From Bacteriovoracaceae bacterium (GTDB lineage Bacteria; Bdellovibrionota; Bacteriovoracia; Bacteriovoracales; Bacteriovoracaceae), in contig CAXRIU010000021.1 of assembly GCA_964231135.1 (NCBI GenBank), positions 157,427-221,426 on the forward strand: a DNA stretch of 64,000 bases. The letters run 5' to 3'. Position 1 is the stretch's first letter; each line of letters opens with the position of its first letter. Below are positions 22,045-48,474 of the stretch, one piece after another. A program made the position numbers and the translations under genes. Under the pieces are notes generated by a model. The model made no database searches. It was not told where the DNA came from and worked only from the letters and a program-made list of their open reading frames with translations.

Positions 22045-23361
22045 TTAAGATTTATTCAAAAGGTTTTTAATCGCACTTTGGCATTTTTTAAAGGTTTTAT
22101 CTTGAAAAAAATCATCATATTGATCAACTATTTCACCGACATGCCCCGGTGATTCAGGTTGTTCAATCGCCAATGAGGTGGCCAGAATTTGGGAAAAGAT
22201 AAACAGCGATGGTAGGAAGGGGAGTGAAGACGCATAACTTCCCCTTGGGAAACCCGATCCGTCTGGTCTTTCATGATGAGAACGGATGATCGCAACCACA
22301 TCACTATAGTCTCCATCCAGTTTTGAAACCAGCAAAGCCGCATTTTCTGGATGCTTTAGTATTTTACTTTTTGTCGCAGGAGCTAGGTGTTCCATATCCG
22401 TTTTGGTGTAGATCAATTTTTCTTCATCTGTGTCGAGAAAAATATCGCAAAAAATCGCTGCCATAACTAGTTTGGGTAAATTTTGCACTGGACTCATTTC
22501 AAGCATTTCTAGAACACTGGCTGCAATATAGGTGGTGAGAAGATTTCTTGTTGCGATATGACCATCGACATTTGCTTTATAGATAAGAAACTCTGCCATT
22601 TTATTATTTGATGACAATTTTGTGATCACATTATCGGTAATAGAATCAACCAATTTGAAAATTTTCTCAGAAATACCGAGTTTGTCCGCAATCTCTCTGG
22701 CGTCAGCAATTAATTCGACTGACATTTTTATTTGGTTTTCTAATGTGATGGATTTATTTTCAATAAAAGAAAGAACTTTGTTAAAGAAGTATTTTTGAAT
22801 TTCAAAAAAATCTTCACCACTGACGTAGAGCCTGCCACTTTCTTTGACTTTCTCGTCCAGCTCTAATTCAGCTTCTCGATTTTTCAAAAGTACTAGGCGG
22901 CCAGCGACTTGTAAGTAGACCTCGATATCTGCTCCTCTATATTTTGTCAGCTGTTCAGCGCTAATTCTATGAAAATCATCATATTGCCTTTCAATTAGTA
23001 TTTTCGAGGCTGCACTATATTGAAACTTCATTTGATCAAAGGGCTTTATTAGGTAATCTACTTCATTGTTTTTAAGCTTTCTCACAAGGTCTACCCAGCG
23101 CTTAGTATCTTTAAGAACCCATGTGGTAGGAATCGTTTTGGCAGTTGATTGTTGATCCATAAAAAGGTCTTCAAGATCCATATCAATAAAACGATCATCG
23201 ACCATCATGTAGGATATGTCTTCATTCTGACGGTAATAGCTTGCCAGGTCTTTAGCCGATTTAAGCTTTATTAGATTAAGACTTGTAGGAGTCCTGCAAG
23301 TAATGAGAAGCTCCATATAATCGAGCATTGAATTTTCGTTAGATGCAATTACAACTTTCAT
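22045..23361 (-). CDS. HD-GYP domain protein (putative c-di-GMP phosphodiesterase) with a degenerate receiver-like N-terminus
   Basis: C-terminal ILKHPENAA...IIRSHHERPDGSGFPRG (HD...HHExxDGxGYP pattern). The N-terminal MKVVIASNE... is receiver-like. Confidence 0.8.
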   Translation of the reverse strand: MKVVIASNENSMLDYMELLITCRTPTSLNLIKLKSAKDLASYYRQNEDISYMMVDDRFIDMDLEDLFMDQQSTAKTIPTTWVLKDTKRWVDLVRKLKNNEVDYLIKPFDQMKFQYSAASKILIERQYDDFHRISAEQLTKYRGADIEVYLQVAGRLVLLKNREAELELDEKVKESGRLYVSGEDFFEIQKYFFNKVLSFIENKSITLENQIKMSVELIADAREIADKLGISEKIFKLVDSITDNVITKLSSNNKMAEFLIYKANVDGHIATRNLLTTYIAASVLEMLEMSPVQNLPKLVMAAIFCDIFLDTDEEKLIYTKTDMEHLAPATKSKILKHPENAALLVSKLDGDYSDVVAIIRSHHERPDGSGFPRGSYASSLPFLPSLFIFSQILATSLAIEQPESPGHVGEIVDQYDDFFQDKTFKKCQSAIKNLLNKS

Positions 23362-23421: not shown

Positions 23422-23448
23422 TTATCGGAATTTAAATTGAGCTCTTTA
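23422..23448 (-). promoter_or_regulatory. sigma-28-like promoter for the HD-GYP/kinase/HExxH operon
   Basis: Minus strand reads TAAAGAGC-N11-TCCGATAA, about 60 nt upstream of ATG 23361. Confidence 0.45.
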
Positions 23449-30132: not shown

Positions 30133-30813
30133 ATGAAGTTCGTTATAATCTTTTGTTTTTTCATTTTTTCAGTTCAAGCTCAAGATGAACGCTATTATTT
30201 TCCAATAGATAAGAAAACGACTTCTACCGTAACTAGTGAAAGCTTTCACCGGGTATTTTTCACTATTATTTCCCTTTATTCAAAGGAGATAAGCCGACTT
30301 GATTTACCCCTTGCTTTGGAACCTGAATGGGAGAATCCATATATTACCGCTTATACGGCGCGCTTGAGTGATCGTATTAGGCTCGGGTTTTGGGGAGGAA
30401 TGGCTCGGATAGATGGAATGAATAATCAAGCGGTTGCACTTATTACTTGTCACGAATTAGGCCATCTTTTTGGTGGAGCTCCTTTTATCGCAATCGATCA
30501 TGAACAATATAAAGATATATCCGCTGAAGGACAGGCAGACTATTTTGCAAGCTCTGAGTGTCTTCCTCGCTATTATGAATTCCTAAATATCGAAGATAAA
30601 GAACATGAATTATATATGGCCTTAAGCGGCTTCATAAATGCTCTTAGGTTATTGAAGCCCCATAGGGGAGAAGTCAATTTACTGAGCTTATCAAATGAAG
30701 TGACTGAAGAGACTTTATACAATAGTTATCCTAGTAACCAATGCCGCATTGATACCTATAAAGCAGGACTAAGTAATGAACCTAGACCTGCCTGCTGGTA
30801 CTTGGGAGATTAA
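30133..30813 (+). CDS. Small secreted HExxH zinc-metallopeptidase-like protein
   Basis: Signal peptide MKFVIIFCFFIFSVQAQ and ITCHELGHLFGG. Confidence 0.65.
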   Translation: MKFVIIFCFFIFSVQAQDERYYFPIDKKTTSTVTSESFHRVFFTIISLYSKEISRLDLPLALEPEWENPYITAYTARLSDRIRLGFWGGMARIDGMNNQAVALITCHELGHLFGGAPFIAIDHEQYKDISAEGQADYFASSECLPRYYEFLNIEDKEHELYMALSGFINALRLLKPHRGEVNLLSLSNEVTEETLYNSYPSNQCRIDTYKAGLSNEPRPACWYLGD

Positions 30814-32282
30814 CTCGCAATTTTGTAATCATTTTCAAATTCATCTTCCTCATCCTGACCTGATTTTGATAGGGAGGAATTAATATAAGAGAGTCGCCTA
30901 GATTCTTGATCGAGATTCCCAATAAGAGTTTCAACTTCTTTTAAGTGGCTGAGTGATTCTCCTGAGGAGGTACTGATTGTACTTAGAGCCGCACTTAGTT
31001 CTTTAATCCCTTCGCTTTGAGATTGAGTTGCATCAAGAACTTCTTTTAGATAGTCTTTTTGAATAGAAGTGTTTTCGGATAATTTTTTAAACGAGCTATT
31101 GAGTTGGCTGTTTGTCTGGTTAAACACGTCGTAAGCCTCTTGGATCTCTGCTTTAAAGGCTGTAATCTGTTTTACAATATCTGTAATAGCGCTACTTAGA
31201 GACGATTTTGATGCAGTAACTATTTTTCCAATTTCATCAGAAGCTTGACCAGAATTATTGGCAAGAATACTGATCTCTTCAGCAACGACTGAAAAACCTT
31301 TTCCATGTTCTCCTGCTCTTGCTGCTTCTACCGAGGCATTGAAAGAGAGAAGTTTTGTTTGAAAAACAATATCATTGATTACAGAAGTCTTGTCGCTGAT
31401 ATTATTAACTGCAGTTTCAACAGAACGAAGATTTTGCTCAGAATGCAATTGAAGTTTATCCATACTCTTAGAAATATCCTCTAATTTTTGAAAAAATTCT
31501 TGAGATCTTTCAATCGCTTGGGAACTAATTCTCATTGACTCTTGGGTTTCTTCCATTAAGTTAAAGCTTTTTGTAATTTGATTTTTAGTGGAGTTAACCA
31601 TCTGATTAATTTCCTCTGAACTAGCAGAAATTTCAGTAATACTATTAGAGTTCGCATTGGAGTTGTTTAATAAAACGGTACATGATTGCATTGTATTCTT
31701 TGAGACGCTATCAATTTTGCCAACCAAAGGAGAGAGTTCTAGGCTTATTTTTTGTTGTAAATCGAGCGATGCCTTGAATTTATAGGCTAAAAAAGCACAG
31801 GCGATTGTTTCGAAAACGACAAAAAGAGCATGAATTGCGACAATCCCAAAACTTGCTTCGTAATTAAAAATACTCTCAGGAATCCAATACCAAAATGCCA
31901 AATGGTGAACTGCACCTGTGACAGCCGCAACAATTGTCGTTTTTGGGTTGGCCAGTAAGCTTAAAATTCCAATAGTAACAAATATATGAAAATGCCATTC
32001 AATCATACCTTTTCCTAAATGGATCATAATCCCAGACAAGGCAATTGATGAAAATCCCATCAATAGGGAGGCGACATTTTCATTTTTTAAAATCTTCCCC
32101 CAGAACATCTGTCCCGCAAATAACAATAGCGGGAAAATAACTGCAATCGACTTCTCTGTTCCAAAATAGTCAGCCATTGCCCAGAATACAGGTATATGAC
32201 CAAGGATTGCCCAGTTCATAAGTTTTAGAATTTGACTTTGATTTCTCTCAAAAACACCCATTTCTTCTTTACCTTTTTGCAT
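30810..32282 (-). CDS. Methyl-accepting chemotaxis protein with a His-rich polytopic N-terminal domain
   Basis: Signalling-domain core SFNASVEAARAGEHGKGFSVVAEEISILA. About 6 N-terminal TM helices with EWHFHIF, AVHHLAFWYW and AIHALF. No periplasmic ligand domain or HAMP recognised. Confidence 0.9.
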   Translation of the reverse strand: MQKGKEEMGVFERNQSQILKLMNWAILGHIPVFWAMADYFGTEKSIAVIFPLLLFAGQMFWGKILKNENVASLLMGFSSIALSGIMIHLGKGMIEWHFHIFVTIGILSLLANPKTTIVAAVTGAVHHLAFWYWIPESIFNYEASFGIVAIHALFVVFETIACAFLAYKFKASLDLQQKISLELSPLVGKIDSVSKNTMQSCTVLLNNSNANSNSITEISASSEEINQMVNSTKNQITKSFNLMEETQESMRISSQAIERSQEFFQKLEDISKSMDKLQLHSEQNLRSVETAVNNISDKTSVINDIVFQTKLLSFNASVEAARAGEHGKGFSVVAEEISILANNSGQASDEIGKIVTASKSSLSSAITDIVKQITAFKAEIQEAYDVFNQTNSQLNSSFKKLSENTSIQKDYLKEVLDATQSQSEGIKELSAALSTISTSSGESLSHLKEVETLIGNLDQESRRLSYINSSLSKSGQDEEDEFENDYKIAS

Positions 32283-38935: not shown

Positions 38936-41900
38936 ATGGAAAATGATGCTCTAAAAAATGAATTTCTCGTCGAGTCGTTTGAAAACCTATCTTCAATTAA
39001 CGAAGACCTCACACGTCTTGAAAAAGATCCTTTTGATAAAGAGCTTCTGAACAAAATATATCGAACAGTTCATACGATGAAAGGGTCAGCGAGTTTTCTA
39101 GGCTATAAAAAATTACAGGAAATTACTCATACGGGAGAGAATCTATTAGATGAGTTAAGAGAAGGAAATATTACTGTTACGTCTGAAATTGTAGATACGC
39201 TGCTCGAGACTTTTGATATATGTCATAATTTCCTAAAAAATATAGAAGCGACTAACGAGGAAGGAGAGGTCGACTTTGAGGAAATTCAAAAAAGGTTAGA
39301 AGCTCATCTCAAGGGAGAATCGTCAAAGCCTCAAGAAAATGAAGCGATTGATCGTCAGAGTGTTGAAGAAGACATAATCTCTCAGATGTCGGGACTTGTG
39401 GCAGCTAATCCCGAAGAGGCAGCACGGGAAGCTGTTAATACTCCAGAAACTGATAGTGCTGAAGAAGATGATTTAGACCTCGATAATTTAGTACAAGCTC
39501 ATCGCTCTGTAACTGCTAAGGAAAAAACAGAAACACAAAGTGAATCAGCTGAAATGGGACTATCTAGTGCTGCTTTGGAATCTCTCAAAGAATTGGTTTC
39601 AGATGGAAAAATAGATGCTTCAGCATTTGATGATTTGGAAAAAAATGTGACAACATCACCTGTTGCTGAGACAGAAGTTGTAGCGGCAACAGATGCAATT
39701 AGTTCAGCCGCAATGGATTCACTAAGGGAGTTAATTTCAGATGGAAAAATTGATTCGTCAGCGCTTGATGAAATTAAAGACGTTGATTTATCAGCTGTTG
39801 AACAATCAGTAAGCCCTACGGAAATTGAGGTTGTTTTTAAGGAAGAGCACAAAGAGCCCGAGGAGGGAAATATAGCGGAACCTGTAATCAAACCTCAGCC
39901 AGTTGTGAATAATGAAAAACTCGAAGATCTAGATCAACAAATTCGTGGCGATGACATGAAAAAGTCAATCGTCGATTCATTTGTAAGAGTCAATGTTAAT
40001 GTGCTCGATAAAATTATGAATGTCGTTGGGGAGTTAGTTCTAAATAGAAATCAAATCCTGCAGTATGCATCAAAAGCCGATAGTAGTGAGTTTAATCGTC
40101 TTTCTCAGCAGTTGAACGTCATCACATCCGAATTACAAAGTGAAGTTATGTCGACTCGAATGCAGCCAATAGGAAATATTCTTACCAAGTTTGAAAGGCT
40201 AGTGAGAGATATTGCCCGATCCCATAATAAAAAGATCAATTTGAATTTAATGGGATCGGAAACAGAGCTAGATAAGAGCTTACTAGAGGCGATTAAAGAT
40301 CCTCTAGTGCATATTATTAGGAACTCATGTGATCACGGGATAGAAGATCTTCCAGGACGTAAATCAGCAGGGAAGTCAGAGCAGGGAACCGTTACAATCA
40401 AAGCTTATAATGAGAGTGGACAAGTCACAATTGAGATTTTCGATGACGGTAAAGGTCTAGATCCTCAACGAATTGGTCAAAAAGCTGTGGAGAAAGGGAT
40501 TATTTCGGAAGCAAAATTAAATGAAATGTCAGAGAGCCAGATAATAAATTTAATTTTCAAACCAGGTTTTTCTACAGCGGAAAAAGTGACAAATATTTCA
40601 GGCCGTGGTGTTGGGATGGATGTAGTTAAAACCAATATAGAAAAAATTGGAGGAACTGTTTCTGTAAACTCGAATCTAGGATATGGTACAAATTTCAAAC
40701 TAAGAATACCGCTAACATTGGCCATAGTTCCATCTTTAATGATTAAAAGTAAGGGAGAGAATTTTGCGATTCCTCAGCTTAATTTAGTAGAGCTAGTTCG
40801 ACTAGAGACCAGCCAAGATCACGAGCAAATCGAAACTTTCTCTGGCAGCGAATTTTTAAGGCTCAGAGGGAAACTCACTCCGATTTTTCGCTTGGATAAA
40901 GAGTTGGGGCTGGAGAAAGTCCAGCAGAAATCAAAAGAAATCAATCAAATCAATTCTCTCAATACCTTAAATCCAACGGATAAGCAGGAGTCAAGTAACC
41001 TCCACTCAATGGAAGAAGTTCATGCAGCAATGAATATCGTGATCCTAAATGCTGAAGATAATATCTTCGGAATTGTTGTCGACGAAATCATGGATACCGA
41101 AGAAATTGTTGTTAAGGCACTAAACAATAAGCTTAAAGACATTAAAATTTTCGGTGGAGCTACCATTATGGGAGATGGAAGTGTGGCCCTCATTCTCGAC
41201 GCAATAGGTTTTTTGAGTGAAGTAAGCCATATTGATATTGAAAAAGCTGAAGAATTAGCAGAAGATTCTAATCCAATTAATGCAATTGATGCCTCTTTTG
41301 AGTACCAAGAAAATTTACTTTTTAAATTATATGACGACCGTATCTATGCTATCCCGTTGACTCTCGTCTCTAGACTAGAGGAATTTGATGCCAGTAAAAT
41401 TGAGAAAACCGGAAGTCAAAAAATTGTTCGGTATTTGGACGCACCTATGCCACTCATCGGAGTAGAAAAGGCATTAAGTTTAGAAGGGAAGTCGATACTT
41501 GAGGAAGAAAGCTTACCGGAAGGAACCAGTCTTTCTTGTATAGTTACTAAAATTAGAGGTCGTAATTTTGGAATCATTGTCAAAGAAGTTATGGACATTT
41601 CAATTGATCACACTAAGATCGATGATACAGCTGTTGATAGAGAAGGTATAATAGGGACTATATTTATCGATGAAAAAACAGTTCCTCTGCTTGATCTTTA
41701 TTCCATTCTTGCAGCCCAAAATCTGGGTGTATCAAATAAAGAGATAACTAATGCTAAATTGATGCCGAAAACGATTCTTTTAGTAGACGATTCTCCAATG
41801 TATAGAAAATTAGAAGCAGATTCATTACGCGAAATTGGTTATACGGTTATCACCGCCAATCACGGACTGGATGGTTTTGAAAAGCTTCAAAATCAAGATT

Positions 41901-42157
41901 TTGATTTGTTAATTACTGATATTGAAATGCCTCTTTTGGATGGTTTCGGGTTTGCTAGAAAAGTTAGGGATGAACTTCCGGCAAAGCAGATTCCGATTAT
42001 AGCATTGTCGACTCGGGTTTCTGATAAGGATCTAGAAAAAGGGCGTGAAAGCGGTTTCAATCATCACCTGGAAAAATTTAAGAAAGAAGAAGTAGTAGAT
42101 TTAGTTAATAGTATTTTACAAGGATCAAATTATGGAAATAGTTCAACAGCAAGCTAA
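38936..42157 (+). CDS. cheA: Hybrid CheA histidine kinase: Hpt, repeat-containing acidic linker, dimerisation domain, HATPase, two CheW-like domains, C-terminal receiver
   Basis: Hpt TVHTMKGSASFLG. HIIRNSCDHGIE, DDGKGLD, GRGVGMD. Two CheW-like segments. REC ILLVDDSP...DLLITDIEMPLLDG. Confidence 0.9.
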   Translation: MENDALKNEFLVESFENLSSINEDLTRLEKDPFDKELLNKIYRTVHTMKGSASFLGYKKLQEITHTGENLLDELREGNITVTSEIVDTLLETFDICHNFLKNIEATNEEGEVDFEEIQKRLEAHLKGESSKPQENEAIDRQSVEEDIISQMSGLVAANPEEAAREAVNTPETDSAEEDDLDLDNLVQAHRSVTAKEKTETQSESAEMGLSSAALESLKELVSDGKIDASAFDDLEKNVTTSPVAETEVVAATDAISSAAMDSLRELISDGKIDSSALDEIKDVDLSAVEQSVSPTEIEVVFKEEHKEPEEGNIAEPVIKPQPVVNNEKLEDLDQQIRGDDMKKSIVDSFVRVNVNVLDKIMNVVGELVLNRNQILQYASKADSSEFNRLSQQLNVITSELQSEVMSTRMQPIGNILTKFERLVRDIARSHNKKINLNLMGSETELDKSLLEAIKDPLVHIIRNSCDHGIEDLPGRKSAGKSEQGTVTIKAYNESGQVTIEIFDDGKGLDPQRIGQKAVEKGIISEAKLNEMSESQIINLIFKPGFSTAEKVTNISGRGVGMDVVKTNIEKIGGTVSVNSNLGYGTNFKLRIPLTLAIVPSLMIKSKGENFAIPQLNLVELVRLETSQDHEQIETFSGSEFLRLRGKLTPIFRLDKELGLEKVQQKSKEINQINSLNTLNPTDKQESSNLHSMEEVHAAMNIVILNAEDNIFGIVVDEIMDTEEIVVKALNNKLKDIKIFGGATIMGDGSVALILDAIGFLSEVSHIDIEKAEELAEDSNPINAIDASFEYQENLLFKLYDDRIYAIPLTLVSRLEEFDASKIEKTGSQKIVRYLDAPMPLIGVEKALSLEGKSILEEESLPEGTSLSCIVTKIRGRNFGIIVKEVMDISIDHTKIDDTAVDREGIIGTIFIDEKTVPLLDLYSILAAQNLGVSNKEITNAKLMPKTILLVDDSPMYRKLEADSLREIGYTVITANHGLDGFEKLQNQDFDLLITDIEMPLLDGFGFARKVRDELPAKQIPIIALSTRVSDKDLEKGRESGFNHHLEKFKKEEVVDLVNSILQGSNYGNSSTAS

Positions 42158-42584
42158 TCAGTACTGTGGTTTTAAAATCGCAGGTGAAGAATACGCTATA
42201 CCTGTGATGGAAGTTCAAGAAGTAATCAAGCCTCTTCAAGTAACATCTGTTCCCCTTGCTCAGGATGAAATACGTGGGCTTATAAATTTAAGAGGTCAAA
42301 TTGTCACCTCTTTGAGTCTTAGAAAGCTTTTTGGTCAGGATGAAAATTTGAGTCAAGACTATATGAATATTATAGTTAAAGGTGATGATGGACTCTATTC
42401 TCTAGTTGTCGACGAAGTTACCGATATTATAGACGTAGAAGAAGAGTCAGTGGAAAGAGTTCCGGATACAATTAATCCAAGAATCAAAAGATTTGTGGAT
42501 CGAATTTTTAAAAGAAGCAAAGGGCTCGTTGTCCTTCTTAAGATTGATGAGCTAATCAAATTAGAAGAGAAAAGAGAAAAATGA
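42132..42584 (+). CDS. cheW: Chemotaxis coupling protein CheW
   Basis: 150 aa with FKIAGEEYAIPVMEVQEV...INLRGQIV. Confidence 0.9.
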   Translation: MEIVQQQANQYCGFKIAGEEYAIPVMEVQEVIKPLQVTSVPLAQDEIRGLINLRGQIVTSLSLRKLFGQDENLSQDYMNIIVKGDDGLYSLVVDEVTDIIDVEEESVERVPDTINPRIKRFVDRIFKRSKGLVVLLKIDELIKLEEKREK

Positions 42585-43648
42585 GAGTATTGATTGTTGA
42601 TGATTCCGTTGTATACAGATCTGCCATAAAAAGTGCCTTAACAGGTTCAGGGCAGGATTATGAAATTGATATTGCCGCCAACGGAAAAATTGCAATCGAT
42701 AAACTGAAAATGAGAGAATATGATATCGTAACTTTAGACCTAGAAATGCCCGTCATGGATGGCCTAGAAACAATTAAGGCCATAAGAGAATTCAATCATA
42801 AAGTTCCAGTTATTATATTTTCGGCTCAAAACGTAAATGCAGCTAACAAAACACTCCATGCCTTAGAGATAGGAGCAAATGATTTTGTGAAAAAAATCGA
42901 AGGAGGGTCAAATCTTGATGAAAATATTAAGATGATTCAACAAGAGTTGCTTCCTAGATTTAAAGCACTCGCCGGTAGAATCAGTACTACGAGCGGTGTA
43001 TATGTGAAGGAGCAAGTGGCAGAAAAAATTATTTCTACCCCTGTTCGAGAAAAAAACTTTTTGCAGGTTTGCGATTTTAATCCAAGTATTTTGTGTATTG
43101 CTAGTTCGACTGGTGGACCAGATGTTTTAAAGAAAATATTCTCTGACCTTGAGAAATTGCCAATACCAGTTTTAATTGTCCAGCATATGCCTCCAGTGTT
43201 CACAACTCAATTGGCAAAAGGTCTTGATCAAATTTCCAAGATGACTGTTAAAGAAGCAGTTGTAGGAGATATTCTTGAACCGGGTGTGGCCTATCTTGCA
43301 CCGGGAGACTTTCATATGGTGATTGAAAAAAAGAATGATAAATATCAGATAAATTTAAATCAAGACCCAAAAGTTTGTTATGTGAGGCCTGCCGCAGATG
43401 TAACTTTTCAGTCAGTGGCCGAAAACTTCACTGGGAAGGTACTAGGAGTCGTTTTAACGGGTATGGGAAACGACGGAGCAAATGGGTCGGGGTTACTAAA
43501 AAACAAAGATTGTCGGATACTCATTCAAGACGAAGATTCAAGTGTTGTATGGGGAATGCCGAAAGCGGTATATGAGAAGGGGTTTTACGATATTCGCTTA
43601 ACACCTTCTGACATCGTAAAAGCAATTAATAGAATGACTTTGAGGTAA
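42581..43648 (+). CDS. cheB: Chemotaxis methylesterase CheB (receiver plus esterase)
   Basis: REC VLIVDDS...LDLEMPVMDG. Esterase motifs ASSTGGP, QHMPPVFT, GMGNDGA. Confidence 0.95.
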   Translation: MRVLIVDDSVVYRSAIKSALTGSGQDYEIDIAANGKIAIDKLKMREYDIVTLDLEMPVMDGLETIKAIREFNHKVPVIIFSAQNVNAANKTLHALEIGANDFVKKIEGGSNLDENIKMIQQELLPRFKALAGRISTTSGVYVKEQVAEKIISTPVREKNFLQVCDFNPSILCIASSTGGPDVLKKIFSDLEKLPIPVLIVQHMPPVFTTQLAKGLDQISKMTVKEAVVGDILEPGVAYLAPGDFHMVIEKKNDKYQINLNQDPKVCYVRPAADVTFQSVAENFTGKVLGVVLTGMGNDGANGSGLLKNKDCRILIQDEDSSVVWGMPKAVYEKGFYDIRLTPSDIVKAINRMTLR

Positions 43649-43650
43649 AA

Positions 43651-44019
43651 ATGAAAATTTTGATCGTAGATGATTCGAATGCCATCGCTATGGTGGTGAG
43701 TGAGTACATTAAAGAACTCGGCTTTGAAGCCTATCATGCCTCAAACGGTAAAGATGCTGTCGATATGATCTCCCAGGAAGACATTTTTGACTTGATACTA
43801 TTGGACTGGAACATGCCAGTGATGGACGGGCTAAGCTTTCTTGAGTTCAATCAACAAAATCATTTGACTAAATGCCCAATCATGATGATGACGACAGAGA
43901 ATAAACCGGAAAAAATAATGAAAGCGTTAGAGTTAGGTGCGCTTGAATATATTATGAAACCTTTCAGTAAAGAAATTCTTGAATTAAAAATACAAACCCT
44001 TAAAAAAGCAGCGGCTTAG
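43651..44019 (+). CDS. cheY: Single-domain response regulator CheY
   Basis: ILIVDDS...LILLDWNMPVMDG...MMTT...KPF. Confidence 0.9.
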   Translation: MKILIVDDSNAIAMVVSEYIKELGFEAYHASNGKDAVDMISQEDIFDLILLDWNMPVMDGLSFLEFNQQNHLTKCPIMMMTTENKPEKIMKALELGALEYIMKPFSKEILELKIQTLKKAAA

Positions 44020-44021
44020 TT

Positions 44022-44852
44022 ATGGACAATAAACCTGTATATCCCATTCTCGCAAAATTTGTATTTGATAATACTGGGATATTTTATGGCGAGAGAGACT
44101 ATTATAGGCTCGACAGTAGAATTGATAAAATAATAAGAGAGCTTAATTTAAGCTCAGAAGATGCTTTAATTGAGCATATTAGATCCGGACATGATCAAGA
44201 GGTAAAAGCTAAAATCGTTGATATTTGTACTAATAATGAAACATTCTTTTTTCGTGATCAAAATCCTTTTAATGCACTAAAAGATAATATATTACCTGAT
44301 TTTATTGATCAAAAACCCATGTCTGAGATTAATATTTGGTCCTGTGCTTGCTCTAGCGGGCAAGAACCTCTTTCAATTCTTATGACAATTTTTGAAAAGT
44401 ATCCTAATCAAACTATCAAACTGGACGCGACAGACATCTCTAAAACAATTTTAGAAAAAGCGAAGTCAGGAATTTATAATAGTTTGGAAGCCCAAAGAGG
44501 TTTGCCAATTCAAAATTTGATTAAATATTTTCAACAAGTTGAAAATAATTGTTGGAAGGCGAAACCAGAACTTCTCAATAAAATATCCTATGGAGAATTT
44601 AATCTTTTCAGTAATAACTATCCAAGAGAAAAATACCATGTGATTTTTTGTCGAAATGTTTTGATTTATCAGAATATGGAAAACAAAAATAAAATATTAA
44701 ATAAACTCTACGATTCGTTAGCACCTGGAGGGTATTTAATCATGGGGGCCGGTGAATCTCTTATTGGTAGCTCGATAGAACTTGAGCAAAAAAGTATGGC
44801 CGGAACAATGGTATTTCAAAAGAAAGACAGAGCCAATAAAGTCGCAGCATAA
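44022..44852 (+). CDS. cheR: Chemotaxis methyltransferase CheR
   Basis: TNNETFFFRD, IWSCACSSGQEPLS, IFCRNVLIY. Confidence 0.9.
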   Translation: MDNKPVYPILAKFVFDNTGIFYGERDYYRLDSRIDKIIRELNLSSEDALIEHIRSGHDQEVKAKIVDICTNNETFFFRDQNPFNALKDNILPDFIDQKPMSEINIWSCACSSGQEPLSILMTIFEKYPNQTIKLDATDISKTILEKAKSGIYNSLEAQRGLPIQNLIKYFQQVENNCWKAKPELLNKISYGEFNLFSNNYPREKYHVIFCRNVLIYQNMENKNKILNKLYDSLAPGGYLIMGAGESLIGSSIELEQKSMAGTMVFQKKDRANKVAA

Positions 44853-44858
44853 ATTAAT

Positions 44859-44886
44859 TAAAAGACAAGGACGTTATTGTCGATAA
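44859..44886 (+). promoter_or_regulatory. sigma-28-like internal promoter between cheR and the Hpt-REC gene
   Basis: TAAAAGAC-N12-GTCGATAA, 20 nt upstream of ATG 44906. Confidence 0.4.
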
Positions 44887-44905
44887 ATATACATGAGGTT
44901 GAAAA

Positions 44906-45841
44906 ATGTCAAATGACATGATTGGTGATTTTCATATTGAAGCAATAGAGCTGCTAGACGAAGCGGAAGATAGTCTTTTAGAGCTAGATAAAGGTGGCAA
45001 CTATAAAGAATGCTACAATCAGCTATTTAGAGCATTTCATAGCATTAAAGGTGCGGCGGGTATGTTTGGAATCGAAGACCTCCAAAAGCACATGCATTAT
45101 CTTGAAAATCTACTTTCCAACAAACAATCTTTAGATAAACTCAGCACCGCAACGATTGATTATTTTCTAAATGGAGTTGATGGAGCAAGAAAAATTTTAA
45201 ACAATGAAAATATTCAATTTGATTATTATGACCCTGATAAAGAGTCTCCATCGGGGACGGAAAATGCGGTTACACGCAAACAAGAAACTGCTAAAGAAAA
45301 AATTGGAAGAGAGAAAAATACAGGCGAGATTTGGCTCGTAGATGATGAAGAGGATATCTTAGATATTCTTGAAATTCATCTTGTTGAATATCAGTACAAA
45401 GTAAAAAAGTTTCTAAATCCTCTTAATTTACTAAAAGAATTGGAGACTGCAACACCTGACTTAATCGTCTCTGATATTAATATGCCGGAGATGAATGGTG
45501 TTGAACTCGTTAAACAAGTAAATATAAAAAGACCGCATCTTCCTGTAGTCGTGGTATCTGGCTTTGTAACGAAGGAAGTGTGTTTGAATCTTCTGCGTGA
45601 TGGTGTAACGGGGGTTATTGAAAAGCCATTTTTGGAAGAGGATTTTATAAAGCTCGTAGAATTAAATATAAATCGATATCAAAGTATCAAACTTTTGAAC
45701 AAGAGTATAGATTTACTGATCTATCAATTTGAGAATTTCCCTGGTGTTGCAGGAAGTGAAAAAGATTTTTTTGATCATTTTAGGGCAGAACTTAAATCCA
45801 TTCTGAAACAAAAAAACAACTTGTATAAAAAACTAAGGTAG
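44906..45841 (+). CDS. Hpt-receiver phosphotransfer protein
   Basis: Hpt FRAFHSIKGAAGMFG. REC IWLVDDEED...DLIVSDINMPEMNG...SGF...KPF. Confidence 0.85.
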   Translation: MSNDMIGDFHIEAIELLDEAEDSLLELDKGGNYKECYNQLFRAFHSIKGAAGMFGIEDLQKHMHYLENLLSNKQSLDKLSTATIDYFLNGVDGARKILNNENIQFDYYDPDKESPSGTENAVTRKQETAKEKIGREKNTGEIWLVDDEEDILDILEIHLVEYQYKVKKFLNPLNLLKELETATPDLIVSDINMPEMNGVELVKQVNIKRPHLPVVVVSGFVTKEVCLNLLRDGVTGVIEKPFLEEDFIKLVELNINRYQSIKLLNKSIDLLIYQFENFPGVAGSEKDFFDHFRAELKSILKQKNNLYKKLR

Positions 45842-45848
45842 AATTGAT

Positions 45849-48425
45849 ATGGAAAGCAAGTATCAAATAGTTTGTGTGGACGACGATAAAGATGTTTTAG
45901 ATATCTTGGTAGATACCATTGAAGACTTAGGATACTCTGCCCAAGGGTTTACTAGCCCTCAAATTGCTACCGAATTTATTGAAAAGAATCGCCATCAAAT
46001 AGTCTTAATCTTATCAGATTTAAGAATGGACGATACAAATGGATTCGAACTTAAAAAAGGTCTGCCTAAACTCACACAAGAAATACCATTTGTTATTATC
46101 ACTGGGTATTGGACCCAGGAGATGTCTGCACAGGCCATGGAAATTGGTATCGATGCGTTTTTAGAAAAACCAGTTAAAGCTGAAGTCTTAGAAGATCAAA
46201 TTGATCGTTTTGCCAAAAAACGCGAAGAAACACTAAACGAAGAACGCGAAATGGTAGAGGGGTTCCTAGATGAAACCACCCCTATGCTGGATGAGATTGA
46301 ATCTCTCATTCTTGAATTGGAGGAAAGTTCAGATAAAGAGCTAACTCTATCAGTCTATTTCAGATTACTTCATACTATCAAAGGAACAGCTTCGTGCGTA
46401 GGACTAACTCGTCTTGGAGACTACACTCATAAATATGAAGATTTTATTGGAGAGTTAAGAAATAAAGCCATCCCGGTAAATACTGGGGCCATCAATGTTT
46501 TATTGTCTGGGCTCGACGATTTAAAGCAGTTTTTTAAAATAGTTGATGAAGTTGGCAATGATAACGAAGTTGAATTTCAACATCTTATAGGCAAATTCAC
46601 TGATCTAGATGAACTTGCGACAAGTAACAATGATATCGAACAGAAAGAAGCTCAGAAAGAGCAAGTTGTTGATAATAAAAAAAGTGCTGAAGATGATAAG
46701 ATGACTGTCTCTATGTCTGTCTTGAACCAGTTTATGGAGGAGTCAGGAGAACTCACAGTAATTAGGAATTCAATCCTCAAGACCGTAAATAAAATTGAAG
46801 GTCGTTATAGAGGAGATAAAGATATAGAGCAATTAAACGAACTCTTATCTGGAATGTACTCTGTCACTTCAAACATCCAAAATAAAATAACTGAAATGCG
46901 AAAAGTTCCTCTTAAAAATACTTTTCGTCCATTTAAAAGGCTTGTGCGCGACCTATGTAAGAAGCTGGGTAAAGATGTAGAACTTGAGATTAGAGGTGAG
47001 GAACTACTTGTTGATAACATTATCGCTAAGCTCTATAGCAACACCATGATTCATATTATTAGAAATAGCCTAGATCATGGAATAGAGACGATAGCTAAAA
47101 GAGAAGAAAAAGGAAAAAATCCTACTGGTAAATTGACTATTGAGGCTTATCCTCTGGGAGAGGATATCGTTTTGAAGGTAAGTGACGATGGAAATGGAGT
47201 CGATCCAGAAATTATAAAAAAGAAAGCGGTAGAGAAGGGATTATACACTCCTGAAGAAGTTGCAGTAATGTCTAATTTGCAGATCATCAATATCATTTTT
47301 GATTCTGGCTTTAGTACTGCTGAACAGGTATCAGAACTCTCGGGAAGAGGGGTTGGAATGGATATGGTTCGTGGCTCATTTCGAGACATGGGCGGTGAGG
47401 TATATGTGCAAAGTGAAAGTGGTCAGGGATCTGTTTTTACCTTAAAAGTTCCTATTCCAAAATCAGTTTTAATAATCAATACTCTTTCTGTAGAAAATAA
47501 CGGTAAGATTGTATTGTTTCAAATGGAAGAAGTGGCAGAAGTGTTGCAGTTTAATGAATCTAGCCATTCCACGCGTATCTTTGAGACTGGTGGACAAAAA
47601 ATGCTCGAGCAAAATAATGAGATGATCGAGTTACTAAAGCTTTCAGATGTTTTTGAGGAACCGTACAAAGAGCCTTTAGATGGGCATTATAATATTGTTA
47701 TTCTCAGAGTCGGGGAGAAAAAATTTGGCCTAATTGTAGATACGATTTTTGAATTTGAAGAAGTCGTATTGAGAAAAATCACGCCTCAAATTCATTCGCA
47801 CTCGCTCTATCACGGGGCAAGCTTAGTTGGAGCCGGGGAAGTGGCCATGATTGTATCCTCTGAAGGTATCGCTCATAAAATGGGACTTGAGATTAAGCAA
47901 GTAGAGCACAGCTTAGCTGAGATAGAAGAGGAAAAGGTATCGCATGAGTTATCAGAATATATGATTTTTGACTATACAGATACTCATGATCAACTCTGTA
48001 TTAATCTCTCTCAAGTTGATAGGTTTGAGAAGATTTCACCTGATAAAATCGAGAGAATTGGGACAAACTTCATCATTCGCTACCTCGATCGAAATTTGCT
48101 ATTAGTAGATCCAGGATATGTGCTTGGGCTAACTGATGAATGCCGTCTTGAAAATGGACATTTCCAACAATTAGAAGATTTTGATGTGATTGTAATCCGC
48201 GGAGAACGAAAGTGGATGGGATTAATTGTAAATAAGTTAGGGGAGATCGTTCCTACTGAGCAGGGAGTAAACTTAGATACAGTTAACAATCCAGGACTAA
48301 AAGGTTCATTGTATCTTGATGGAGTGACTGTCTGTGAAGTTGATATGGACTATATTGAAGAGAAGACTAGTAAGCGAATGAAGATTCAGGTGGATAATAA
48401 TTTTAAACTTGCAAAAGCAGTTTAA
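45849..48425 (+). CDS. cheA: Second hybrid CheA: N-terminal receiver, Hpt, dimerisation domain, HATPase, two CheW-like domains
   Basis: REC IVCVDDD...LILSDLRMDDTNG. Hpt LLHTIKGTASCVG. HIIRNSLDHGIE, DDGNGVD, GRGVGMD. Two CheW-like segments. Confidence 0.9.
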   Translation: MESKYQIVCVDDDKDVLDILVDTIEDLGYSAQGFTSPQIATEFIEKNRHQIVLILSDLRMDDTNGFELKKGLPKLTQEIPFVIITGYWTQEMSAQAMEIGIDAFLEKPVKAEVLEDQIDRFAKKREETLNEEREMVEGFLDETTPMLDEIESLILELEESSDKELTLSVYFRLLHTIKGTASCVGLTRLGDYTHKYEDFIGELRNKAIPVNTGAINVLLSGLDDLKQFFKIVDEVGNDNEVEFQHLIGKFTDLDELATSNNDIEQKEAQKEQVVDNKKSAEDDKMTVSMSVLNQFMEESGELTVIRNSILKTVNKIEGRYRGDKDIEQLNELLSGMYSVTSNIQNKITEMRKVPLKNTFRPFKRLVRDLCKKLGKDVELEIRGEELLVDNIIAKLYSNTMIHIIRNSLDHGIETIAKREEKGKNPTGKLTIEAYPLGEDIVLKVSDDGNGVDPEIIKKKAVEKGLYTPEEVAVMSNLQIINIIFDSGFSTAEQVSELSGRGVGMDMVRGSFRDMGGEVYVQSESGQGSVFTLKVPIPKSVLIINTLSVENNGKIVLFQMEEVAEVLQFNESSHSTRIFETGGQKMLEQNNEMIELLKLSDVFEEPYKEPLDGHYNIVILRVGEKKFGLIVDTIFEFEEVVLRKITPQIHSHSLYHGASLVGAGEVAMIVSSEGIAHKMGLEIKQVEHSLAEIEEEKVSHELSEYMIFDYTDTHDQLCINLSQVDRFEKISPDKIERIGTNFIIRYLDRNLLLVDPGYVLGLTDECRLENGHFQQLEDFDVIVIRGERKWMGLIVNKLGEIVPTEQGVNLDTVNNPGLKGSLYLDGVTVCEVDMDYIEEKTSKRMKIQVDNNFKLAKAV

Positions 48426-48430
48426 AAAAA

Positions 48431-48456
48431 GGCCTCTCTTGCGAGAGACCCTTTTT
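48431..48456. terminator. Bidirectional terminator between the second cheA and the convergent secreted-protein gene
   Basis: GGCCTCTC-TTGC-GAGAGACC (8-bp stem, one mismatch), flanked by an A-run upstream and CTTTTT downstream. Confidence 0.6.
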
Positions 48457-48474
48457 ACTTTTGCCGTTTAATAA

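What the first reader, a model, noticed from the sequence alone, without database searches (positions are those of the whole stretch)
38936..48425. Receptor-less chemosensory cluster with two CheA kinases of mirrored domain order and an extra Hpt-REC relay
Gene order is CheA1(Hpt-linker-dimerisation-HATPase-CheW-CheW-REC), CheW, CheB, CheY, CheR, Hpt-REC, CheA2(REC-Hpt-dimerisation-HATPase-CheW-CheW). By my domain reading the cluster holds 2 kinase cores, 3 Hpt domains, 5 receiver domains and 5 CheW-like domains. It holds no MCP, CheZ, CheC, CheD or CheV. Both kinases carry a duplicated P5/CheW-like domain and lack an obvious P2. The receiver sits at opposite ends, C-terminal in CheA1 and N-terminal in CheA2. 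This looks like a multi-step phosphorelay of the type seen in non-flagellar Che-like pathways (Chp, Frz or Wsp-style). A possible internal sigma-28-like promoter splits it into two units. The output is unknown.
Basis: partly seen in the sequence, partly recalled or inferred. Interest (0 to 1): 0.6.

Follow-up and report, generated by a model that had tools for sequence, protein, structure and literature searches.

The report
Two-kinase F5-type chemotaxis cluster
A marine predatory bacterium carries an intact seven-gene chemotaxis cluster with two different CheA kinases and an extra phosphotransfer protein; the design is conserved and seemingly unstudied in its phylum, belongs to a known flagellar class, and its "missing" receptors are simply encoded elsewhere in the genome.

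Summary
Seven co-directional genes (38936-48425) encode CheA1 (P1-linker-P3-P4-P5-CheW2-REC), CheW, CheB, CheY, CheR, a P1-REC protein and CheA2 (REC-P1-P3-P4-P5-CheW2). That gives 2 kinase cores, 3 Hpt, 5 REC and 5 CheW-like domains, with all catalytic and phospho-acceptor residues intact and dN/dS of 0.02-0.08.

The interpretation needs correcting on two points.

(1) "Receptor-less" applies only to this locus. In other genera of the phylum the same cluster carries a soluble PAS-MCP between CheW and CheB. This genome keeps two orthologues of it on other contigs (C12, C16). Both lack membrane segments and have a 19-heptad arm (38H-like). The MCP 6.6 kb upstream in the window belongs to a different receptor class.

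(2) The system looks like class F5 (flagellar), not Chp/Frz/Wsp. Duplicated CheW is the F5 hallmark. CheA1, its REC and CheY best match Azospirillum Che1, and both kinases group with F5 references in a tree. CheA2 is a fast-evolving Bdellovibrionota paralogue of CheA1.

The internal sigma-28-like promoter is conserved within the genus and resembles the Bdellovibrio FliA attack-phase consensus.

I found no paper on this two-kinase system, and the scan had not recorded it on other DNA. The phosphorelay wiring and the output remain inferred.

The parts
38936..42157 (+). CheA1, 1073 aa. P1/Hpt aa 8-91 (His46); acidic linker with a tandem ~28-aa repeat and no P2; P3 348-406; P4 455-594; P5 601-762 with a ~36-aa insert; second CheW-like domain 794-927; C-terminal REC 947-1055 (Asp995).
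   Evidence: Pfam; sequence. Best named match is Azospirillum Che1 CheA at 41% identity over 97% of aa 339-1073. Its REC best matches the Azospirillum and Rhodovastum CheA RECs.
41315..41716 (+). Second CheW-like domain of CheA1 (aa 794-927).
   Evidence: PF01584 at 39.8 bits when scanned alone.
42132..42584 (+). CheW, 150 aa. Overlaps the end of cheA1 by 26 nt, as it does in the congener G001.
   Evidence: PF01584 at 101.5 bits.
42581..43648 (+). CheB methylesterase with N-terminal REC (Asp53).
   Evidence: PF01339 at 192 bits and PF00072; NF001965 at 338 bits, above its cut-off of 293.
43651..44019 (+). CheY (CheY1), 122 aa, with Asp52, Thr81, Tyr100 and Lys103.
   Evidence: PF00072. Best match among the references is Azospirillum CheY1 of the F5 Che1 operon, at 77 bits.
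44022..44852 (+). CheR methyltransferase, 276 aa.
   Evidence: PF01739 at 162 bits.
44858..44886 (+). Sigma-28 (FliA)-like promoter motif TTAAA-N17-TCGATAA in the 53-nt gap before the Hpt-REC gene.
   Evidence: Sequence. Conserved in G002, and in G001 as TTAAA-N17-CCGATAA; a CGATAA box is present in G015 and G023. Resembles the FliA attack-phase consensus of PMC3627812. A similar motif precedes the C16 MCP gene. No transcript data.
44906..45841 (+). P1-REC protein, 311 aa. CheA-P1-type Hpt (aa 3-98; His45, Lys48, His64, Glu67); disordered linker 114-137; REC 141-255 (Asp146/147, Asp190, Ser218, Lys240); conserved helical tail 255-311.
   Evidence: Pfam. NCBIfam matches the CheA model at positions 9-100. 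The key residues are invariant or nearly so in 27-29 orthologues. AlphaFold2 model has mean pLDDT 81.9. Adjacent to CheA2 in 24 of 27 loci.
45849..48425 (+). CheA2, 858 aa. N-terminal REC 7-118 (Asp57); P1 134-227 (His175); P3 287-350; P4 399-537; P5 547-676; second CheW-like domain 713-834.
   Evidence: Pfam. The N, G1, F and G2 boxes, His175 and Asp57 are invariant in 7 orthologues. It is a long-branch sister of the Bdellovibrionota CheA1 group inside the F5-like clade.
47985..48350 (+). Second CheW-like domain of CheA2 (aa 713-834).
   Evidence: PF01584 at 22.3 bits, E 1e-4, when scanned alone. Aligns to CheA1's second CheW domain at E 4e-19. The family profile hits only CheW and CheA-P5 chains in the PDB.
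48434..48457 (+). Terminator-like hairpin plus T-run 9 nt after the cheA2 stop codon.
   Evidence: Consensus scan only.

Best explanation
This is the core operon of an F5-type (flagellar-class) chemosensory pathway of a marine Bacteriovoracaceae/Halobacteriovoraceae predator. It carries a Bdellovibrionota-specific add-on: a second, divergent kinase (CheA2) and a P1-REC protein.

The receptors are most likely the two cytoplasmic PAS-type MCPs encoded on other contigs (C12:74593-76188 and C16:15149-17089). These are the orthologues of the MCP that sits inside the cluster in other genera.

Proposed mechanism:
- The soluble receptors form a cytoplasmic array with CheW and with both kinases. Each kinase contributes P5 plus a second CheW-like domain.
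- A PAS-sensed intracellular signal (redox, energy state or a metabolite) sets autophosphorylation of His46 in CheA1 and His175 in CheA2.
- Phosphoryl groups pass to CheY, which acts on the flagellar motor, and to CheB, which with CheR adapts the receptors.
- They also pass to the receivers fused to the kinases (Asp995, Asp57), which act as sinks or feedback gates. No CheZ is found in the genome.
- The free P1-REC protein is phosphorylated in trans on His45 by a kinase core and passes the phosphate to its own Asp190. It then acts as a tethered extra output or sink through its helical tail.
- The P1-REC/CheA2 pair has its own FliA-type promoter, so it is probably boosted in the swimming attack phase.

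Shown: gene content, intact residues, purifying selection, conservation across the phylum, orthology of the orphan MCPs, and similarity to F5 components. Inferred: array composition, direction of phosphotransfer, promoter activity and flagellar output.
For: Domains and residues.

Functional constraint: dN/dS is 0.02-0.08 for all seven genes against congener G002.

Conservation:
- Full-length CheA2 orthologues lie next to CheA1-type kinases in 7 of 41 relatives.
- There are 431 tblastn relatives in GTDB genomes. The 79 best loci are nearly all Bdellovibrionota.
- CheA1 and CheA2 are co-located in 43 of 70 loci.
- The ancestral order is CheA1-CheW-MCP-CheB-x-CheY-CheR plus P1-REC plus CheA2.

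Receptors:
- In-cluster MCPs of relatives hit C12 and C16 at E 1e-160 and 2e-211, against 1e-9 to 1e-13 for the window MCP.
- In G015, G023 and G020 the best match of the C12 MCP is the in-cluster gene. In congener G001 it is an orphan gene on another contig.
- Neither C12 nor C16 has a membrane segment.
- Their C-terminal arm is 133-134 aa, or 19 heptads. They align without gaps to MCPs encoded beside the two-CheW kinases of Rhodovastum and Nostoc, but with heptad-sized gaps to Tar/Tsr.
- F5 pairs with 38H receptors according to PMC6759762 and PMC8429497.

Class:
- 99% of F5 CheAs have two CheW domains, and nearly all two-CheW CheAs are F5 (PMC10782961).
- Azospirillum Che1 CheA is the best plasmid-library hit, and it sits in a cheA-W-Y-B-R operon.
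- A clade of CheA1, CheA2 and the F5 references has 97/98 support, or 89/89 once an ACF reference is added.
- CheY and the CheA1 REC best match their Azospirillum counterparts.

Flagellum and phosphatases: FliM is present, while CheZ and CheD were not found.

Promoter.
Against: - No class HMMs (MiST) were available. The tree has only one reference each for F1, F6, F7 and ACF, and none for Tfp or F2-F4 and F8-F17.
- The heptad class is inferred from arm length and gapless alignment, not from a class model.
- The genome has a second, F7-like che cluster on C9. It also has a second CheY (C21:360107-360574) that looks much more like the Pseudomonas motor-binding CheY (133 bits, against 72 for the cluster CheY). 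The cluster's CheY may therefore not be the main motor switch signal.
- F5 Che1 of Azospirillum changes swimming speed rather than reversals (PMC6759762), so "flagellar class" does not fix the behaviour.
- P1-REC is found beside CheA2 in only 27 of 70 loci and in 33 of 301 sampled genomes of the phylum, so it is an optional part.
- In G040 an OmpR-type regulator sits between the P1-REC and CheA1 genes, which hints at a transcriptional branch.
- There are no expression or biochemical data.
Confidence: 0.55

Rival explanations
1. Two parallel pathways share one receptor array. CheA1 signals to the cluster CheY (F5-type, for example swimming speed). CheA2 signals to a second, Pseudomonas-like CheY2 that binds the motor and is reset by a CheX-type phosphatase. 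P1-REC links or buffers the two branches. In this genome the CheY2-CheX pair has been moved about 155 kb away on the same contig.
For: In G020 a 134-aa CheY and a 168-aa CheX-like gene lie right next to cheA2. Their orthologues in this genome are C21:360107-360574 (E 2e-51) and C21:361643-362146 (E 1e-44; Pfam CheC hit). A CheY2 orthologue lies within 10 kb of CheA2 in 12 of 70 loci and within 1.5 kb in 7. CheY2 scores 133 bits against P. aeruginosa CheY and 114 against the Rhodovastum CheY next to CheZ.
Against: The linkage is seen in a minority of loci. CheY2 could just as well serve the F7-like C9 kinase, whose cluster has no CheY of its own. There are no phosphotransfer data.
Confidence: 0.3
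2. The pathway has a non-flagellar (ACF-like) output. It would control predation-related behaviour, surface motility or gene expression through P1-REC or another receiver rather than through the flagellar switch.
For: There are many phosphotransfer modules and fused receivers, as in Chp, Frz and Wsp. The receptors are cytoplasmic PAS proteins. An OmpR-type regulator is embedded in the G040 cluster. P1-REC has a conserved tail that could bind a target. In Bdellovibrio the FliA regulon covers many non-flagellar attack-phase genes (PMC3627812).
Against: No kinase carries multiple Hpt domains, and no pil, wsp or frz-type partner genes are adjacent. The ACF reference falls outside the clade. The architecture, the CheY, the CheA REC and the receptor length all match F5.
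Confidence: 0.2
3. The cluster is a decaying remnant that lost its receptor and no longer signals.
For: There is no MCP in the cluster. The in-cluster MCP and the neighbouring gene found in other genera are both gone.
Against: dN/dS is 0.02-0.08 for all seven genes. All catalytic and acceptor residues are intact. The same seven-gene order is kept in at least five further species down to 53% CheA2 identity. Orthologues of the lost MCP are retained elsewhere.
Confidence: 0.03

Closest known systems
Che1 (class F5) of Azospirillum brasilense/lipoferum; also Rhodospirillum centenum Che1 and Azorhizobium caulinodans Che
   Same: CheA has the architecture P1-P3-P4-P5-CheW-REC without P2. CheA1 aa 339-1073 is 41% identical over 97% of its length. 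CheY and the CheA REC are reciprocal best matches. The core genes are cheA-cheW-cheY-cheB-cheR, and the receptors are of 38H length (PMC10782961, PMC6759762).
   Different: Che1 has one kinase. It has no REC-P1 kinase, no P1-REC protein, and mostly membrane receptors. The Azospirillum CheA1 has an N-terminal membrane domain.
Rhodobacter sphaeroides CheOp3 (CheA3/CheA4 with the soluble receptors TlpC and TlpT)
   Same: Two CheA-like genes sit in one chemosensory cluster that works with cytoplasmic receptors. Trans-phosphorylation of a P1 domain by another protein's kinase core is established there (PMC10782961; otherwise from general knowledge).
   Different: CheA3 and CheA4 are complementary halves: one lacks a working kinase core and the other lacks P1. 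Here both kinases are complete and both carry two CheW-like domains and a receiver.
N-terminal-receiver CheAs noted in the CheA architecture survey (Berry, Andrianova and Zhulin 2023, PMC10782961)
   Same: The survey records "several cases" of a CheY-like domain at the N-terminus of CheA, and two CheW domains as the F5 signature.
   Different: The survey lists architectures only. It does not describe pairing with a second F5-type kinase and a P1-REC protein, and no Bdellovibrionota name occurs in its held supplements.
ChpA (Tfp class) of Pseudomonas aeruginosa, and FrzE/WspE (ACF class)
   Same: These are hybrid CheA-REC kinases with extra phosphotransfer steps.
   Different: ChpA has many Hpt domains in one protein and works with PilJ, PilG and PilH. 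ACF kinases have one CheW domain. An ACF reference (the S. meliloti pSymA CheA) falls outside the clade that holds CheA1 and CheA2.
Helicobacter pylori CheAY2 and other CheA-REC phosphate sinks
   Same: A fused receiver is present in a genome without CheZ. The survey finds that 93% of genomes with a single CheA-REC lack dedicated phosphatases.
   Different: This genome has a CheX-like gene elsewhere and two fused receivers in opposite positions.

Membership tests
Chemosensory class F5 (Wuichet-Zhulin/MiST) | CheA with a duplicated CheW-like domain (99% of F5 CheAs; PMC10782961). | tested here: met
   Both kinases have it. CheA2's second domain is 1.2 bits under Pfam's cut-off when scanned alone, but the profile evidence supports it.
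Chemosensory class F5 (Wuichet-Zhulin/MiST) | CheA carries a C-terminal receiver and lacks P2. | tested here: met
   Met for CheA1. CheA2 lacks P2 but has its receiver at the N-terminus, a deviation.
Chemosensory class F5 (Wuichet-Zhulin/MiST) | The kinase core groups with F5 CheAs in a phylogeny. | tested here: met
   A clade with Azospirillum Che1 CheA has 97/98 support, or 89/89 with an ACF reference added. The reference set is small (F1, F5, F6, F7, ACF only).
Chemosensory class F5 (Wuichet-Zhulin/MiST) | Partner receptors belong to heptad class 38H. | tested here: inconclusive
   The orthologues of the in-cluster MCP have a 133-135-aa (19-heptad) arm. They align without gaps to MCPs next to two-CheW kinases and with heptad indels to 36H and 44H structures. 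No class model was available.
Chemosensory class F5 (Wuichet-Zhulin/MiST) | Assignment by the class-specific HMMs for CheA, CheB, CheR and CheW. | not testable with these tools
   The MiST class HMMs are not in any library offered.
Tfp class (Pil-Chp) | CheA with multiple Hpt domains, plus PilJ-type MCP and PilG/PilH/PilI partners next to pilus genes. | tested here: not met
   Each kinase has one Hpt. There are no pilus genes within 6 kb on either side.
ACF class (Wsp/Frz/Dif-like) | The kinase core groups with ACF CheAs, has a single CheW domain and a non-motility output partner. | tested here: not met
   The S. meliloti pSymA ACF CheA lies outside the clade, although on a long branch. Both kinases have two CheW-like domains. 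No GGDEF or FrzZ-type partner is in the cluster.
Split CheA3/CheA4-type kinase pair (R. sphaeroides, class F8) | Two incomplete CheAs that complement each other: P1 without an active core, plus a core without P1. | tested here: not met
   Both proteins have P1, P3, P4 with intact N/G1/F/G2 boxes, and P5.

The most novel reading that the evidence does not exclude
Bdellovibrionota have evolved a distinct sub-type of chemosensory pathway. In it, a cytoplasmic receptor array holds two different complete kinases, and several free-standing P1 proteins act as parallel phospho-acceptors. These are P1-REC here, and an MshEN-like/P1 protein in other genera. Such a design would let intracellular energy or second-messenger state gate prey-hunting motility, with trans-phosphorylation of free P1 domains as a general design principle. 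No class currently describes this wiring.
Probability: 0.25. Interest if true: 0.65.

Novelty: new variant of a known kind. Interest (0 to 1): 0.48.

Why it matters
Chemotaxis in predatory bacteria is poorly understood, and the role of the second CheW domain of F5 kinases is an acknowledged open question (PMC10782961). This lineage offers a natural experiment. It has two complete F5-type kinases with receivers at opposite ends, a free P1-REC protein and soluble receptors, all in a conserved, strongly constrained gene set that exists with and without its receptor gene. At least one cultured strain among the related loci, Bacteriovorax sp. BSW11_IV, carries CheA1 and CheA2 (locus L030). The system could therefore be used to test how mixed-kinase arrays assemble, whether free P1 domains are phosphorylated in trans, and how attack-phase swimming is steered. 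For annotation, the practical lesson is that "no MCP in the cluster" does not make a pathway receptor-independent.

Tried and rejected
- The MCP in the window (30810-32282) as the cognate receptor: rejected. It matches the in-cluster MCPs of relatives only at E 1e-9 to 1e-13. It has a different hairpin-tip sequence, a longer arm and membrane segments, and it groups with the C2 and C17 receptors.
- CheA3/CheA4-type split kinase: rejected, because both kinases are complete.
- Pseudogenisation: rejected by dN/dS.
- Literature searches for Bdellovibrio, Halobacteriovorax or Bacteriovorax with CheA gave no description of this cluster.
- The supplements of the CheA survey hold no Bdellovibrionota names.
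- Pfam on the ~290-aa gene that sits between cheB and cheY in other genera gave nothing. A profile against the PDB later showed an MshEN/T2SSE_N-like N-terminus and a CheA-P1-like bundle. The gene has no orthologue in this genome.
- A genome-wide scan for the FliA-like motif gave 51 hits. My rough base-composition estimate, not a tool result, is about 35 by chance. The downstream genes read were mostly secreted or signalling proteins rather than obvious flagellar genes. The motif alone therefore does not prove membership of a flagellar regulon.
- Earlier scan notes searched by sequence returned no look-alike. A word search returned only unrelated chemosensory modules.
- No structure search was run on the P1-REC model, because the tail is only moderately confident.
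Full report
**What is there**

The window is G000:C21:157427-221426, from a 3.79-Mb genome that is 97.5% complete. Seven co-directional, tightly packed ORFs occupy 38936-48425, with gaps of -26, -4, 2, 2, 53 and 7 nt.

- CheA1: Hpt 8-91, dimerisation 348-406, HATPase 455-594, two CheW stretches, REC 947-1055.
- CheW.
- CheB: REC plus methylesterase. The NCBIfam CheB model scores 338 bits, above its cut-off.
- CheY.
- CheR.
- An Hpt(5-76)-REC(142-251) protein.
- CheA2: REC 7-118, Hpt 134-227, dimerisation 287-350, HATPase 399-537, two CheW stretches.

Scanned alone, the second CheW-like segments score 39.8 bits for CheA1 and 22.3 bits for CheA2. The latter has E 1e-4 and is 1.2 bits under the cut-off. 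The two segments align to each other at E 4e-19. A profile of 20 CheA2-type C-terminal segments finds only CheW and CheA-P5 chains in the PDB.

No P2 family matches either linker. Phospho-sites and catalytic boxes are intact:

- His46, His45 and His175, each in an H-x-x-K-G motif with the downstream His and Glu typical of CheA P1.
- Asp995, Asp53, Asp52, Asp190 and Asp57.
- The N, G1, F and G2 boxes in both kinases. These, with His175 and Asp57, are invariant across seven CheA2 orthologues.

All seven genes are under strong purifying selection against a congener, with dN/dS of 0.02-0.08.

**Surroundings**

The flanks are unrelated. Upstream lie a flavin oxidoreductase, an ORF without a Pfam match, a Na/Pi cotransporter and a TrmB-like methyltransferase. 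Downstream lie secreted hydrolases. An MCP lies at 30810-32282 on the minus strand.

Genome-wide there are five MCPs and three CheAs. The second che cluster on contig C9 has these parts:

- a plain CheA (single CheW, no REC), which groups with E. coli F7 CheA (95/89 support);
- CheW;
- a 1092-aa CheR-REC-x-REC-CheB fusion.

FliM is present. CheZ and CheD were not found. The only CheC/CheX-like hit is at C21:361.7 kb.

**Relatives show that the receptor was moved, not dispensed with**

A search of 41 relatives found full-length CheA2 orthologues in seven genomes, each near a CheA1-type kinase. A scan of GTDB genomes found 431 relatives. The best 79 loci are almost all labelled Bacteriovoracaceae, Halobacteriovoraceae, Bdellovibrionales or Oligoflexia.

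Annotating these loci gives a common plan: CheA1-CheW-MCP-CheB-x-CheY-CheR, plus P1-REC and CheA2 in varying orientation. Linkage counts:

| Feature | Count |
|---|---|
| CheA1 and CheA2 co-located | 43 of 70 loci |
| Of those 43, loci with the MCP in the cluster | 28 |
| P1-REC within 10 kb of CheA2 | 27 of 70 loci |
| P1-REC directly adjacent to CheA2 | 24 of 27 |
| P1-REC in sampled genomes of the phylum | 33 of 301 |

Only the window's own clade (G000, G001, G002 and four further species with 53-63% CheA2 identity) has the exact seven-gene form, without the MCP and without gene x. A few Oligoflexales-labelled loci also lack the MCP.

The in-cluster MCPs are PAS-containing. Their orthologues in this genome are C12:74593-76188 (E 1e-160) and C16:15149-17089 (three PAS domains, E 2e-211). 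The window MCP matches them only at E 1e-9 to 1e-13.

The reverse search agrees. The best match of the C12 MCP is the in-cluster gene in G015, G023 and G020. In congener G001 it is an orphan gene on another contig. An ABC1-kinase gene next to the C12 MCP is the orthologue of one embedded in the G015 cluster, which is consistent with a rearrangement.

Neither C12 nor C16 has a membrane-like segment, whereas the other three MCPs do.

**Which class**

The CheA architecture survey states that 99% of F5 CheAs have a duplicated CheW domain and that almost all two-CheW CheAs are F5. It also notes that receivers are usually C-terminal but occasionally N-terminal (PMC10782961).

Against the plasmid library, CheA1 aa 339-1073 matches Azospirillum kinases best, at 41% identity over 97% of its length, including the second CheW domain and the REC. 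E. coli, Pseudomonas and Vibrio kinases cover only about 55%. The A. lipoferum hit sits in a cheA-cheW-cheY-cheB-cheR operon. This is the gene order of Azospirillum Che1, which is classed F5 in A. brasilense and predicted to pair with 38H receptors (PMC6759762 and PMC8429497).

In a maximum-likelihood tree of the P3-P4-P5 core, several groups form one clade:

- Bdellovibrionota CheA1 and CheA2;
- Azospirillum Che1;
- a Rhodovastum CheA-REC;
- a Nostoc two-CheW CheA.

This clade has 97/98 support, or 89/89 after adding an ACF reference from S. meliloti pSymA, which falls outside it. CheA2 is a long-branch group (branch length 2.1) next to the CheA1 group.

Domain-level matches agree:

- The cluster CheY best matches Azospirillum CheY1.
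- The CheA1 REC best matches the Azospirillum and Rhodovastum CheA RECs.
- The CheA2 REC and the P1-REC REC are each other's best match, so these two proteins share ancestry.

The C12 and C16 MCPs and six in-cluster MCPs end 133-135 residues after the hairpin tip, which is 19 heptads. They align without gaps to the MCPs beside the Rhodovastum and Nostoc kinases, and with heptad-sized indels to Tar/Tsr (36H) and TM1143. This fits 38H, but no class model was available.

I therefore read the system as F5-like, with moderate confidence. The limits are the small reference set and the lack of MiST class HMMs.

**The add-on module**

The P1-REC protein has a CheA-type P1. NCBIfam's E. coli CheA model matches at positions 9-100. 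His45, Lys48, His64 and Glu67 are invariant or nearly so.

Its receiver is fully conserved (Asp146/147, Asp190, Ser218, Lys240). A tail with the motif KLLNKSIDL..YQF is present in all orthologues.

An AlphaFold2 model (mean pLDDT 81.9) shows a four-helix bundle, a disordered linker at 114-137, a confident receiver, and a helical hairpin tail of lower confidence.

A complete P1 domain with no kinase core of its own is most simply a trans-substrate of a CheA core. This is known for R. sphaeroides CheA3 and CheA4. That step is inferred here.

**Promoter**

The 53-nt gap before the P1-REC gene holds TTAAA-N17-TCGATAA.

- It is conserved in G002, and in G001 with a perfect CCGATAA.
- A CGATAA box is present in G015 and G023.
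- The B. bacteriovorus attack-phase (FliA) consensus is TTAAG-N16-CCGATA (PMC3627812).
- A similar motif precedes the C16 MCP gene but not cheA1.

The generic motif is only mildly enriched genome-wide: 51 hits against roughly 35 expected from base composition, which is my own estimate rather than a tool result. Activity therefore remains to be shown. A terminator-like hairpin follows cheA2.

**Output**

The class and the CheY similarity point to the flagellum. The evidence is indirect.

A second CheY (C21:360107-360574) with a CheX-like neighbour is the orthologue of a pair that lies beside cheA2 in some genera. This CheY2 resembles the Pseudomonas motor CheY far more than the cluster CheY does. 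A two-branch model (CheA1 to CheY1, CheA2 to CheY2) is therefore a serious rival. A non-flagellar output cannot be excluded.

**Novelty**

Each architecture on its own is catalogued. I found no description of the combination: two complete F5-type kinases, P1-REC and soluble receptors, conserved across Bdellovibrionota. The scan has no earlier record of it on other DNA. It is a new variant of a known kind. It should interest chemotaxis specialists, but it is not a new category.

Noticed in passing
G000:C9:140921-146801 (outside the window): Second che cluster: an F7-like CheA (691 aa), CheW, and a single 1092-aa protein that fuses CheR, a REC, an unassigned stretch of about 330 aa, a second REC and the CheB methylesterase. 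The cluster has no CheY.
   Followed up: partly
L014:2522-3391 (-), L016:10838-11677 (+), L017:8142-9011 (+) and 24 further loci: The ~290-aa gene between cheB and cheY in other genera has no Pfam match. Its family profile matches the MshEN/T2SSE_N c-di-GMP-binding domain of PilF, MshE and PilB at the N-terminus (E 7e-8) and CheA P1 in the middle (E 4e-7). It looks like a further free P1 protein, possibly second-messenger-linked. It is absent from this genome.
   Followed up: partly
G000:C21:360107-362146 (about 155 kb downstream of the cluster, outside the window): CheY2 (155 aa, closest to P. aeruginosa CheY) and a 167-aa CheC/CheX-like gene. They are orthologues of a pair that lies next to cheA2 in G020 and some other genera.
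   Followed up: partly
G000:C12:73086-74591 and L011:10241-11743: An ABC1 atypical-kinase gene lies next to the orphan C12 MCP. It is the orthologue (E 6e-46) of an ABC1 gene embedded in the G015 che cluster, where no cheR was found.
   Followed up: no
window 39559-39779 and about 40919-41026: The CheA1 linker holds a tandem ~28-aa repeat (SSAALESLKELVSDGKIDASAFDDL / SSAAMDSLRELISDGKIDSSALDEI). The P5 domain carries an insert of about 36 aa (aa 662-697) that breaks alignments to orthologues from other genera.
   Followed up: no
window 22045-23361 (-), with motif at 23422-23448: A 438-aa protein with an HD-GYP-type motif (HHERPDGSGFPRG) is preceded by a FliA-like TAAA-N15-TCCGATAA motif.
   Followed up: no
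L103 (Nostoc sp. C052 plasmid pC052_D, 84025-97674): A cyanobacterial plasmid carries CheX, REC, a two-CheW CheA (no REC), CheW, a short MCP with a 133-aa arm, CheB and CheR. This is the same gene order and receptor length as the Bdellovibrionota clusters.
   Followed up: partly
L015:10520-11203 (-): In G040 an OmpR-type response regulator (REC plus Trans_reg_C) sits between the P1-REC gene and cheA1.
   Followed up: no
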